A DNA stretch of 64,000 nucleotides from Scenedesmus sp. PABB004 (lineage: Eukaryota), in contig JABVCE010000009.1 of the NCBI GenBank assembly GCA_014905635.1, positions 620,001 to 684,000 of the forward strand. Direction: 5' to 3'. The notes beneath the pieces are model-generated. The model worked only from the letters and a program-made list of their open reading frames with translations. It did no database searches and was not told where the DNA came from. Every line of letters starts with the position of its first letter. The first letter of the stretch is position 1. A program made the position numbers and the translations under genes. Positions 14,406 through 16,715 of this stretch are shown here, piece after piece.

Positions 14406-16715
14406 CCCGGCGGCCAGGCAGGCCCTCACCGTCGACTCAGCCCATGGTCGTCATGCCAGCTGCCGAGCATGGGCCCAGTTGACGTGGGGGCCTGCCCGCC
14501 GCCGGGTCCGCGCCGCTGCGCCCGCCCGGGCGCGCGCGCAGCCGGGCAGCGCGCGCGCCGCCGCGCTCGCGCCGCAGGCCGGCGCCGGCACCGCGCGCCG
14601 GAACCAACGACGTCGGCCGGGCCGCGAAGAGCAGGAGGCCCTTCACCATGAGGGTCCAGCATCGGCGGGAGCGGGCCGCGAAGAGCAGGAGGCCCTGCAC
14701 CATGAGGCCTCCTGCTCTTCGCGGCCCCATCGACGCCCTTGGCTGCCGGAGCGCGGCTGCGCGGCCTCCATCCAGCGAGGCGCGGCCCGGCGGCACGCCC
14801 CTGGCGAGCGAGGCGCGTGCGGTGCACGCGCTCAGCGCCGACGCATGCAATGCCCGTCCAGTTGGCAGGCATCACGTGCGTCGGCGCTGAGCGCGCGCAC
14901 CGCGCCCGCCTCGTTGATCGCGTTTACGGACGGCGTGCCATGCTGGCACTGCGTCGACGCGATCAACGAGGCGGGCGCGGTGCGCTCAGCGCTGCGCCGA
15001 CCCTGGCGCGCAGCACGCCGGTGCGTCCCACAAGAAGCTGCTGACTGGCGCGCGCTGCGCGCTGGGGTGCGCCCGCGCGCGCCCCGCCAGGCCGGCACAG
15101 GCGCGGCCCGCCCCCGCCCGCCCGCCCCGCCCGCTCGGCGCCTTTTCTCAACGCGCCCCCCACGCCACGCTGCCGCCGCCCCGCAGCGGCCAGCGCGGCG
15201 GGGCACGGCCGACCACTCGCTCGTGCTGGCCGGCCGCCGCGCGCGCGGCCTCGCGTCCCTGCCGGCGGTTGGGCGGCTGTCGCGTCTGCAGGGCATTGCC
15301 TTCTCCATGCAGACGCGCCAGCCGCTGAACTGCCGGCACGGGGCGCGGGGTCGCCGGCACGTCGCTCAGCTTCTGTCGCGATGTTTGACCCGTACCAAAA
15401 CCTGCTGATGGCACGACATCGGCATGCTTTGGCACTGGTCAAACATCGCGCCGCTGTCGGCCGAGGCTGCGGCGACCCATGTGGACCAGCGGAAGCGGCG
15501 GCGGTGAGCGCGGCGCTGTGCGTCCGCGCGCCCCGGCCCTCCGTCGCGCGCGCCGCCCCTGCTCGTGCTGACGCGCGCGCCGCTCCGCCCCGCGCTCCGC
15601 GCGCCGCCCCTCCCCGGCCCGATCATCCCCTCGACAGCGAGCGCGTTGGCAGCAGCGCGCCGTCGGGCGCGGTCGGCGACGCGGCCGACGGCGGCGGCGA
15701 GGGCAGCGACGCGCTCGCTCGGCGAGGGGGGCCTCGCGCGCGCTCGCGCGCGCCCGCGCCCGCGCGCCGCGCCGCCGGCCTTTGCCCCGCCCTGCCAGCA
15801 CTCGCGCGGCCTCCGATGGCGTTGACGCGGACGACGAGGCGGCGACGCCGGCGGCACGGCGCGGCGACTCGCGCCCGACGGCGCCTGGCACCGGCCCGCC
15901 GACCCGCGGGCTGCGCGCCTCGTCCTGCGGGGTTCGCCCGGCGTACGTTGAGCTGACCCCGCACAACGAGGCGTGCCCTCTGCACGTGCGCGCACGCCGC
16001 GCGCGGCGCACACGCTGCAGGTGCCCAGCGAGCACGCTCAGCGTTCAGCGTGCACGCCGGACACCTGCGCAGGCGCCGCCGCGCGCGTGCAGGGCCTGCA
16101 TGCAGGCCCTTGTTGTTGTCCTGCAAGAGGATGGCGGTCCCTTTCACGACAACAAGAAGGGCCTGCCGTCGGCGCGCCTGCAGCGCGCGCTCGCAGCTCA
16201 GCTCGCGTGCGCTCAGTGTGCCTTGAGACGGCGTGCTCTGCACGCGCGCCTGTTTCAGGTACACCCGGCGTCCAGCGCGTCGCTGAGCTGCGTCATCCTG
16301 CTGACCATGCGCCCACCATGTTGAGCTGGATGACGCAGCTCAGCGCCGCGCTGTCCGCGCGGCTGGTCGCCGCCGTGCCGGCGCCCGAGGTTCAGGCCTC
16401 GTGCCAGCCGGCACCAGCATCATCATCGCCAGGGGCGGGCGGCACGGTCACTCGCGCCGCGCTGGTACCAGCGCGCTGGTCCAGCGCGGCGCGAGCGACC
16501 GCGCCGCCCGCCCGTGGCGGGGCACGGGCTGTGTGTACCTCATCACGTGCAGTTATGATTTGATGTCATCGATTCGTGTGCATCCGCGGGGCCGCTGTCG
16601 GCGCTGTGCAGCGTGCATGCGCGATCGTGCGTGTGCGCCGCGCGGCCGTGAGCGCGATTCTGCCTCCTGCTCGGCGCCCGGCATGCGCCCTCGCGGGCTG
16701 CGCTGTGACCCGCGA
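14406..16715 (+). ncRNA. Candidate polycistronic hairpin / pri-miRNA-like cluster (about 15 stem-loops)
   Basis: Successive imperfect inverted repeats with 20-45 bp stems. No exon-like codon pattern and no recognisable protein motif. Strand is tentative: G-U wobbles favour +, but some stems have A-C mismatches. Confidence 0.6.

What the first reader, a model, noticed from the sequence alone, without database searches (positions are those of the whole stretch)
14406..16715. 2.3-kb non-coding array of about 15 back-to-back, mutually unrelated long hairpins: candidate polycistronic small-RNA (miRNA/siRNA) locus
Seen in sequence: almost the whole interval between the duplicated segment and the aminopeptidase stop codon is tiled by imperfect inverted repeats, at about 14406-14506, 14673-14727, 14819-14903, 14895-14985, 15001-15066, 15188-15231, 15257-15343, 15377-15450, 15627-15729, 16016-16069, 16102-16166, 16204-16247, 16273-16353, 16427-16519, 16603-16646 and 16691-16715. 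Most stems are 20-45 bp with bulges and G-U pairs. Several contain AT-rich high-complexity sequence, so they are not just GC noise. The hairpins share no sequence with each other, which rules out a tandem repeat or a single foldback element. I saw nothing comparable elsewhere in the window. Established: chlorophytes such as Chlamydomonas make miRNAs from long hairpins via Dicer-like enzymes. Inference: this is a dense multi-hairpin precursor or another highly structured RNA, something like a guide-RNA cassette.
Basis: partly seen in the sequence, partly recalled or inferred. Interest (0 to 1): 0.9.

Follow-up and report, generated by a model that had tools for sequence, protein, structure and literature searches.

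The report
Cluster of unrelated hairpin-forming inverted repeats
A 2-kb gene-free gap in a very GC-rich, compact eukaryotic (probably green-algal) genome holds nine strong and three weaker unrelated hairpin-forming inverted repeats, which look like products of repeated DNA copying errors, and whether they also make small RNAs could not be tested.

Summary
Of the 16 hairpins listed, 9 are very strong (z -7 to -14 against dinucleotide shuffles), 3 are moderate and 4 are at chance level. All 10 of the most extreme folding windows in the 64-kb window lie in 14.4-16.5 kb. The tract is non-coding, is not a tandem repeat, and has no other copy in the window. New context: it lies directly behind an 855-bp inverted duplicate of the DnaJ promoter and 5'UTR, which ends about 5 nt before where the DnaJ ATG would be and points into the array. 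This duplicate is the only segmental repeat in the window. Hairpins share arms in chains (A B B' A' C C' A). Arm mismatches have the same transition/transversion mix as the neutral duplicate, with no wobble excess on either strand, and arm divergence ranges from 0 to 16%. I read the locus as a long-lived hot spot of short inverted duplications (template switching or fold-back synthesis) whose arms decay neutrally (about 0.45). A promoter-captured multi-hairpin small-RNA precursor remains open (about 0.27). No genome, RNA runs or relatives were available, so transcription, small RNAs, Dicer/Argonaute presence and copy number are untested.

The parts
13349..14203 (+). Copy A: inverted partial duplicate of 20397-21236. 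It holds the last exons of the FHA-domain gene (with a 1-nt deletion that shifts the frame and a 19-nt insertion in the intron) plus the whole FHA-stop-to-DnaJ-ATG spacer and 5'UTR. It ends about 5 nt before the position of the DnaJ ATG and is oriented to read into the array on the + strand.
   Evidence: blastn 91% over 872 columns; alignment A1; 46 substitutions in 825 aligned positions, 0.8% in the exon and 3.6% in the promoter/5'UTR part; FHA Pfam hit on 13433-13882 +; DnaJ ATG at 20392
14204..14405 (.). Unique GC-rich linker between the duplicate and the first hairpin
   Evidence: No similarity beyond the breakpoint; only low-complexity matches elsewhere
14406..14506 (.). Hairpin H1, about 45 bp with bulges
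   Evidence: z -9.8/-7.4; DNA z -8.3
14604..14742 (.). Hairpin H2. The core 14673-14727 is a perfect 22-bp stem with an 11-nt loop. 14618-14653 is a 97% direct repeat of 14672-14707, so the arm occurs three times (a1, a2, a').
14809..14913 (.). Hairpin H3, 46-nt arms, 87% complementary
   Evidence: (z -11.1/-14.3)
14895..14985 (.). Hairpin H4 (palindrome extends to 14868-15001). Its 5' arm is the 3' arm of H3, the outer 29 bp are perfect, and its 3' arm is identical to the reverse complement of the H3 3' arm rather than to the H3 5' arm.
   Evidence: (z -11.1/-10.7)
15000..15068 (.). Moderate hairpin, directly abutting H4
   Evidence: z -3.5/-3.0
15257..15343 (.). Hairpin H5, 37-nt arms, 84% complementary
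   Evidence: (z -10.1/-6.8)
15377..15450 (.). Hairpin H6, 34-nt arms, only 55% GC
   Evidence: (z -9.5/-9.5)
15627..15729 (.). Moderate GC-rich hairpin
   Evidence: z -4.2/-4.8
15998..16087 (.). Moderate hairpin, 41-nt arms, 76% complementary
   Evidence: z -5.1/-7.6
16091..16110 (.). Perfect loop-less 20-nt palindrome whose right half is the start of the H7 5' arm
16102..16166 (.). Hairpin H7, 26-nt arms, 58% GC
   Evidence: (z -7.5/-7.6)
16268..16358 (.). Hairpin H8, 42-nt arms; all 6 arm mismatches are transversions
   Evidence: (z -8.7/-9.0)
16427..16519 (.). Hairpin H9, 39-nt arms, 92% complementary
   Evidence: (z -11.3/-11.9)
16504..16622 (.). Lower-GC patch (minimum 53%) between the last hairpin and the aminopeptidase stop codon; possibly the zone where transcripts end (inference only)
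16761..19040 (-). M17 (leucyl-type) aminopeptidase gene with introns; stop codon at 16761-16763; first candidate ATG at 19040
   Evidence: Pfam PF00883 1.4e-55 and PF21337
19295..20392 (-). DnaJ (DnaJB11-like) gene, single exon, 365 aa
   Evidence: Pfam DnaJ and DnaJ_C
20397..21236 (-). Copy B: source of the duplicate (3' end of the intact FHA gene plus the DnaJ promoter and 5'UTR)

Best explanation
The tract is a long-lived local hot spot of short inverted duplications. Small palindromes are created and extended by DNA-level template switching or fold-back (snap-back) synthesis during replication or break repair. Each event copies a stretch of local, unique sequence in reverse complement next to itself, so the resulting hairpins are unrelated in sequence. 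Later events re-copy arms of earlier ones, which gives the chains. The arms then decay like neutral DNA. The locus sits in the one long gene-free gap of an otherwise compact region. The adjacent 855-bp inverted duplicate is most simply a larger product of the same instability. Shown: the hairpins, their clustering, the chains, the mismatch spectrum and the duplication. Inferred: the copying mechanism, neutrality and the link to the duplication. If the tract is transcribed, it will fold into a multi-hairpin RNA, but on this reading that is a by-product rather than a selected function.
For: (1) Chain architecture. The right copy 14967-14985 is identical to the reverse complement of the H3 3' arm, while the H3 5' arm differs at 2-3 positions, so H4 was made by inverted copying of an existing arm plus new sequence. 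The 22-nt H2 arm is present three times, twice direct and once inverted. The perfect palindrome 16091-16110 overlaps the H7 arm. (2) Mismatch spectrum. In 10 ungapped arm pairs there are 306 Watson-Crick pairs, 10 G:T, 12 A:C and 27 transversion mismatches, giving ts/tv 0.81. The two copies of the neighbouring duplicate give 19 ts and 27 tv, or 0.70. Neither strand shows a wobble excess, and neither strand folds consistently better. (3) A range of ages. Arm mismatch is 0% for the H2 core and the outer 29 bp of H4, 8% for H9 and 12-16% for six others, against about 4% in the unique parts of the duplicate. This indicates a recurrent process rather than one event. (4) In a self-BLAST of the whole window, the only repeats of 120 bp or more are the 855-bp inverted duplication abutting the array and the H3/H4 palindrome. 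(5) Palindrome formation also acts elsewhere. Perfect 30- and 32-nt high-complexity palindromes occur at 6980-7009 and 60080-60111, while 0 of 60 block-wise dinucleotide shuffles gave any of 30 nt or more. (6) Template switching is a documented way to create whole hairpins in one step and to extend or homogenise inverted-repeat arms (PMC10710096, abstract read; PMC8794818 and PMC13100816, listing abstracts only).
Against: The clustering is extreme for a neutral process. All 9 strong hairpins lie in about 3% of the window, whereas about half of the window lacks codon periodicity. This needs either an unexplained local hot spot or selection against hairpins everywhere else. A 3.4-kb gene-free gap is 8-13 times the neighbouring stop-to-ATG spacers of 255-441 nt and is unexpected for useless DNA in a compact region. 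A complete promoter and 5'UTR copy points into the array. Stems of 22-46 bp fall in the size range of Dicer/Drosha substrates. No ancestral sequence was available, so no single template-switch event is actually reconstructed.
Confidence: 0.45

Rival explanations
1. A promoter-captured, polycistronic hairpin-RNA gene. The duplicated DnaJ promoter and 5'UTR drives a + strand non-coding transcript through 9-12 unrelated hairpins, and a Dicer-like or other RNase III enzyme cuts these into siRNAs or young miRNAs. The hairpins may still have arisen by template switching. This is essentially the first reader's reading.
For: Copy A carries the whole FHA-stop-to-DnaJ-ATG spacer and ends about 5 nt before the ATG position, so the array sits where the DnaJ coding sequence would be. 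The array is the longest non-coding stretch in a compact region. Stems are 22-46 bp and very stable on both RNA strands, and they survive a global fold of 14380-16540. The hairpins are mostly unrelated, as in plant polycistronic precursors with non-homologous miRNAs (PMC2812943, listing only). In Chlamydomonas, DCL3 processes hairpins in non-coding RNAs, introns and UTRs (PMC4817775, passages read). A promoter is described as the limiting factor for new template-switch miRNAs (PMC10710096, section heading seen).
Against: There is no expression evidence of any kind. None of the 21 Rfam matches at E<=5 reaches its gathering score (best 46.1 against 70), and the best ones hit both strands equally. 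G:T is 10 and A:C is 12 in the stems, with a neutral ts/tv. 21-mers from the hairpins find no more near-complementary sites in the rest of the window (47) than shuffled controls do (24-71 in 20 shuffles). RNAi genes are reported as undetected in at least one ultrasmall 73% GC green alga and as apparently lost in other compact microalgae (PMC9871001, passages read). Whether this organism has them is unknown.
Confidence: 0.27
2. A cis-acting 3' element of the aminopeptidase mRNA (- strand). On this reading the array is a very long structured 3'UTR or read-through zone whose hairpins are cut by an RNase III-type enzyme or block exonucleases and polymerase, setting mRNA level or terminating convergent transcription.
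For: The array begins 242 nt downstream of the aminopeptidase stop codon on the - strand. Chlamydomonas DCL3 directly cleaves mRNAs with hairpins in their 3'UTRs, including 9 that have hairpins but no small RNAs (PMC4817775, passages read). The - strand global fold is slightly more stable, -1586 against -1496 kcal/mol.
Against: Neighbouring stop-to-next-ATG spacers are only 255-441 nt, so local 3'UTRs must be short. A lower-GC patch at 16504-16622 lies between the stop codon and the array and may mark the mRNA end (inference). There is no strand bias in wobble pairs.
Confidence: 0.08
3. A graveyard of tiny foldback or MITE-like transposons, each hairpin being the inverted terminal repeats of a different element family.
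For: Each hairpin is formally a pair of inverted repeats around a short core. Gene-poor gaps can accumulate mobile elements.
Against: No target-site duplication flanks any of the 12 hairpins. No arm has a second copy in the other 61 kb. A dozen different families would have to meet in 2 kb. Shared and abutting arms are not expected from independent insertions. No transposase-like Pfam domain occurs in 0 of 20 ORFs of 110 aa or more that overlap 14204-16760.
Confidence: 0.07
4. A chromosomal DNA-structure element such as a short regional centromere or a replication fork barrier, in which dense dyad symmetries (cruciform-prone DNA) are the functional feature.
For: It is a unique gene-free gap with the densest dyad symmetry in 64 kb. 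Non-B-form DNA and dyad symmetries are reported to be enriched at centromeres (PMC5889037, listing abstract only).
Against: Its composition does not differ from the rest of the window. The prior that a given 64-kb window holds the centromere is small. No chromosome-scale context is available.
Confidence: 0.04
5. Assembly or sequencing artefact.
For: Palindromes and extreme GC content are hard to sequence.
Against: The arms are imperfect with varied divergence, and the two copies of the duplication differ by substitutions and indels. Known read-chimera artefacts are, as I recall, kilobase-scale rather than 50-100 nt.
Confidence: 0.03

Closest known systems
Template-switch mutations that create hairpins and de novo miRNA genes (Monttinen, Frilander & Loytynoja 2023, PMC10710096, abstract read; PMC8794818 and PMC13100816, listing abstracts only)
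   Same: Near-perfect stems arise from local unique sequence by inverted copying. Arms can be extended or re-homogenised. Promoter availability decides whether such a hairpin becomes a gene.
   Different: Those events are scattered singly across large genomes. Here 9-12 hairpins of different ages are packed into 2.1 kb with shared arms, next to a duplicated promoter.
Chlamydomonas DCL3 substrates: miRNA/siRNA hairpins in non-coding RNAs, introns and UTRs (Valli et al. 2016, PMC4817775, passages read)
   Same: Chlorophyte setting (probable for this window), and hairpins in non-coding or UTR context next to protein genes.
   Different: No small-RNA or transcript evidence here. The presence of a Dicer-like gene is unknown. 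I did not see a locus with about 10 unrelated hairpins described in the passages I read.
Polycistronic miRNA precursors with non-homologous hairpins (plants: Merchan et al. 2009, PMC2812943, listing only; animal clusters such as mir-17~92, recalled)
   Same: Several unrelated pre-miRNA-sized hairpins lie in one short non-coding stretch.
   Different: Known clusters have defined mature products and conservation. Here hairpins abut or overlap with zero spacing, loops are short (3-11 nt), and no curated family is matched.
Palindrome-associated fragile sites and fold-back inverted duplications; templated insertions by polymerase theta or MMBIR (PMC7999016, PMC4912351, PMC8421209; listing abstracts only)
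   Same: Closely spaced inverted repeats lie beside an inverted segmental duplication, and templated reverse-complement copies of nearby sequence are present.
   Different: Those are mostly described as somatic, experimental or disease events giving short insertions. Here the result is a fixed germline 2-kb accretion.
MITEs and foldback elements (recalled)
   Same: Short inverted repeats around a small core.
   Different: No target-site duplications and no second copies in the window. Arms are shared between neighbours.

Membership tests
miRNA / polycistronic miRNA cluster | Stable stem-loop precursors with at least about 21 bp of stem | tested here: met
   9 hairpins with 22-46-bp stems, z -7 to -14
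miRNA / polycistronic miRNA cluster | Discrete 20-24-nt mature and star reads with 2-nt 3' overhangs | not testable with these tools
miRNA / polycistronic miRNA cluster | Match to a curated miRNA family at its gathering score | tested here: not met
   0 of 21 Rfam matches (E<=5) reach the gathering score; best 46.1 against 70 bits; both strands hit alike
miRNA / polycistronic miRNA cluster | Dicer-like and Argonaute genes in the genome | not testable with these tools
   No genome is held for the window
miRNA / polycistronic miRNA cluster | Pairing preserved on the transcribed strand (wobble or compensatory bias) | tested here: inconclusive
   G:T 10, A:C 12, 27 transversions in 355 stem positions. 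ts/tv is 0.81 against 0.70 in the neutral duplicate. No relatives were available for covariation.
Template-switch / fold-back inverted duplications | Inverted copy lies next to its source, made of local unique sequence | tested here: met
   All arms are adjacent and none has another copy in the window
Template-switch / fold-back inverted duplications | Later events re-copy earlier arms (shared arms, nested palindromes) | tested here: met
   H3/H4 chain, H2 triple arm, 16091-16110 palindrome with H7
Template-switch / fold-back inverted duplications | Ancestral sequence showing a one-step origin | not testable with these tools
   No close relative found: best metagenome loci are 52% identical or less at protein level, 80 of 80 kept; no look-alike windows
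MITE / foldback transposon | Target-site duplication | tested here: not met
   No flanking direct repeat at any of 12 hairpins
MITE / foldback transposon | Multiple dispersed copies | tested here: inconclusive
   No other copy in the 64-kb window; the genome was not available
Tandem repeat / satellite | Head-to-tail copies of one unit | tested here: not met
   TRF finds only short GC microsatellites (periods 2-27) in the spacers
Protein-coding gene | Codon-position GC periodicity or a domain hit | tested here: not met
   No sustained periodicity over 13600-16950; 0 of 20 ORFs of 110 aa or more overlapping 14204-16760 hit Pfam

The most novel reading that the evidence does not exclude
The array is a dedicated non-coding gene. 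A captured copy of a chaperone (DnaJ) promoter transcribes 9-12 unrelated, pre-miRNA-sized hairpins that are continually born and renewed by template switching. It would be a self-renewing nursery of small-RNA precursors or, if the organism lacks RNAi, a new kind of multi-hairpin structured RNA. The transcript would also run antisense into the converging aminopeptidase gene.
Probability: 0.22. Interest if true: 0.75.

Novelty: new variant of a known kind. Interest (0 to 1): 0.5.

Why it matters
Template switching has been proposed as the main source of new hairpin genes, but it is usually seen as isolated events. This locus shows a dozen such hairpins of different ages piled up, with shared arms that record the order of events, next to a freshly duplicated promoter. 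That makes it a natural place to ask two open questions. What makes a site a hot spot for palindrome formation? How does a raw hairpin become an expressed small-RNA gene? If the tract is only neutral debris, it is still a clear example of how much non-B DNA a compact, extremely GC-rich genome tolerates in one place, and of a likely fragile site.

Tried and rejected
Whole-genome search: no genome is held for this window. Relatives: the metagenome scan with the aminopeptidase C-terminus gave 80 loci, all at 52% identity or less and apparently bacterial, so none is usable for synteny or covariation. Look-ups of earlier scan findings by place, sequence and words gave nothing relevant. Rfam gave only sub-threshold generic miRNA-hairpin matches and no snoRNA, ribozyme or other family. 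ARAGORN found no tRNA or tmRNA in the window. Coding potential: no periodicity and no Pfam hit. Tandem repeat rejected. Target-site duplications: none. Shared loop or flank motif: CATG is 2.6-fold enriched (13 in 2.1 kb) and CCTGC 1.6-fold, which is too weak to call a signal. Low GC as a mark of constraint was rejected, because 55 patches at 60% GC or less are scattered over the window. Targets in the window: 47 near-complementary 19-25-mers against 24-71 in 20 shuffles. Poly(A) signal TGTAA (motif recalled from Chlamydomonas): 7 in the window, none behind the aminopeptidase, DnaJ or FHA genes, and one at 13341 just left of copy A. A single catastrophic rearrangement making everything at once was rejected, because arm divergence ranges from 0 to 16% against about 4% for the duplicate.
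Full report
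SETTING. The window averages about 78% GC (68-85% per kb). It carries intron-containing eukaryotic genes. A DnaJB11-like protein from it groups with eukaryotic clusters, one of them mainly chlorophyte. No genome is held for it. On the - strand the local gene order is FHA-domain gene (stop 20833-20835), DnaJ (20392-19295), then M17 aminopeptidase (first ATG 19040, stop 16761-16763). Stop-to-next-ATG spacers there are only 255-441 nt. The gap from the aminopeptidase stop leftwards to the next coding-like sequence (about 13.35 kb, where a TGTAA lies at 13341) is about 3.4 kb. It shows no sustained codon-position GC periodicity, and 0 of 20 ORFs of 110 aa or more overlapping 14204-16760 hit Pfam.

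OBSERVATION. The hairpin cluster is real and far beyond chance. In 1598 sliding 120-nt folds, the 10 most negative GC-corrected residuals all start between 14401 and 16441. In 100-nt windows with 40 dinucleotide shuffles each, z<-4 occurs in 9 of 42 windows inside the array against 1 of 258 outside, that one lying in the DnaJ coding sequence. Eight of the 25 longest close inverted repeats in the window lie here, and most of the other 17 are GC-only low-complexity sequence. With DNA parameters, 0 of 200 shuffles reach any of them. Three more are moderate and 4 are at or near chance. All strong hairpins persist in a global fold of 14380-16540 on either strand. The 12 real hairpins cover 1089 of 2114 nt at 73% GC. 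The rest is spacer at 82% GC that contains only short GC microsatellites. None of the arms recurs elsewhere in the window.

NEW CONTEXT. Directly left of the array, 13349-14203 is an inverted duplicate of 20397-21236. It contains the last exons of the FHA gene, here with a frameshifting 1-nt deletion and a 19-nt intron insertion, so it is a dead fragment. It also contains the complete spacer from the FHA stop to within about 5 nt of the DnaJ ATG. This is a full copy of the DnaJ promoter and 5'UTR, turned so that it reads on the + strand into the array. The copies differ at 46 of 825 aligned positions: 0.8% in the exon, 3.6% in the promoter/5'UTR part, and more in a low-complexity stretch that aligns poorly. 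A self-comparison of all 64 kb finds only two repeats of 120 bp or more, this duplication and the H3/H4 palindrome itself. The only segmental rearrangement in the window therefore abuts the only hairpin cluster.

ANATOMY THAT BEARS ON ORIGIN. Several hairpins are linked in chains. H3 (14809-14913) and H4 (14895-14985) share an arm, giving A B B' A' C C' A. The right-hand A, and part of B after it, is identical to the reverse complement of the H3 3' arm, whereas the H3 5' arm differs at 2-3 positions. H4 was therefore made by inverted copying of an already existing arm plus new sequence. The 22-nt arm of H2 is present three times, as two direct copies 54 nt apart and one inverted copy, all identical, while the older outer stem around them has diverged. 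A perfect loop-less 20-nt palindrome at 16091-16110 overlaps the H7 arm. H3, H4 and the 15000-15068 hairpin abut with no spacer. Many hairpins have a small inner palindrome at the tip surrounded by longer, less perfect arms. This is the pattern expected from repeated template switching or fold-back synthesis on DNA, which can create a stem in one step and extend or re-homogenise existing inverted repeats (PMC10710096, abstract read; PMC8794818 and PMC13100816, listing abstracts only).

TESTS FOR RNA-LEVEL CONSTRAINT. An RNA under selection for pairing should tolerate G:U on its own strand more than A:C. In 10 ungapped arm pairs I count 306 Watson-Crick pairs, 10 G:T, 12 A:C and 27 transversion mismatches. 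The resulting transition/transversion ratio of 0.81 is close to the 0.70 seen between the two copies of the duplicate (19 ts, 27 tv). No strand is consistently the better folder. The numbers are small, and young Dicer substrates need not show such a bias. This is absence of support rather than refutation. Arm mismatch is 0% for the H2 core and the outer 29 bp of H4, 8% for H9 and 12-16% for six others, against about 4% for the unique parts of the duplicate. If hairpins are born perfect, they arose over a long period, both before and after the duplication, so one catastrophic event is unlikely. Elsewhere in the window there are two isolated perfect high-complexity palindromes of 30 and 32 nt (6980-7009, 60080-60111), while none of 60 block-wise shuffles gave one of 30 nt or more. 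Palindrome formation is therefore not confined to this locus, although the pile-up is.

FAMILY CHECKS. Rfam gives 21 matches at E<=5, almost all to assorted animal or viral miRNA precursor models. All are far below gathering score (best 46.1 against 70) and the best hit both strands. This reflects shape only, not membership. No tRNA or tmRNA was found, no tandem array and no target-site duplications. Near-complementary sites in the other genes of the window are not in excess (47 against 24-71 in shuffles).

WHAT COULD NOT BE DONE. No sequencing run was listed, no genome is held, and no close relative exists in the metagenome collection (80 of 80 kept loci at 52% protein identity or less) or among earlier scan findings. 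Transcription, small RNAs, copy number, covariation and the presence of Dicer/Argonaute are therefore all untested. As background, Chlamydomonas DCL3 processes hairpins in non-coding RNAs, introns and UTRs and also cleaves hairpin-bearing mRNAs (PMC4817775, passages read). By contrast, Dicer and Argonaute were reported as undetected in an ultrasmall 73% GC green alga and as apparently lost in other compact microalgae (PMC9871001, passages read). I do not know whether either case applies to this organism.

VERDICT. The best-supported reading (about 0.45) is a long-lived hot spot of short inverted duplications in the one long unconstrained gap of a compact region. Its arms decay neutrally, and the neighbouring 855-bp inverted duplicate is a larger product of the same instability. 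The weak point of this reading is the extreme clustering, which needs either a local cause or strong selection against hairpins elsewhere. The main rival (about 0.27) is that the array is expressed from the captured promoter as a multi-hairpin RNA and diced into small RNAs. Origin by template switching and such a function are compatible. Minor rivals are a cis element of the aminopeptidase mRNA (0.08), MITE relics (0.07), a chromosomal structural element such as a centromere (0.04) and an artefact (0.03). The finding is real and unusual, but its function is open. I score interest at 0.5, and about 0.75 if the promoter-captured hairpin-RNA gene is confirmed.

Noticed in passing
window 13349-14203 vs 20397-21236: Recent inverted segmental duplication carrying a dead FHA-gene fragment (1-nt frameshift deletion, 19-nt intron insertion) plus an apparently intact copy of the DnaJ promoter and 5'UTR. 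It is the only repeat of 120 bp or more in the window apart from the H3/H4 palindrome.
   Followed up: yes
window 6980-7009 and 60080-60111: Two isolated perfect loop-less palindromes of 30 and 32 nt with fairly high complexity. None of 60 block-wise dinucleotide shuffles produced one of 30 nt or more, which suggests palindrome-forming events elsewhere in this genome.
   Followed up: partly
window 19385-19500: A fairly strong hairpin (z about -5.5) inside the DnaJ C-terminal coding exon. It is the only window outside the array with z<-4 in 9-24 kb.
   Followed up: partly
window 13341-13345: TGTAA (the chlorophyte poly(A) signal, as recalled) lies 4 nt before the left breakpoint of the duplicate. 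Only 7 TGTAA occur in the window, and none follows the aminopeptidase, DnaJ or FHA genes.
   Followed up: partly
window 1-64000: Extreme composition (mean about 78% GC, up to 85% per kb) together with very short intergenic spacers (255-441 nt between three consecutive - strand genes). Because stop codons are rare, stop-free frames of 200-1200 codons abound in all six frames and are not evidence of genes.
   Followed up: partly
window 3715-3743: A (CG)n microsatellite of about 29 nt. Similar short CG runs recur across the window.
   Followed up: no
window 21900-23650 (- strand): Dual-specificity phosphatase and rhodanese domain hits upstream of the FHA gene (a MAPK-phosphatase-like gene). An arylamine N-acetyltransferase-like ORF lies at 9090-9902 (-).
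   Followed up: no
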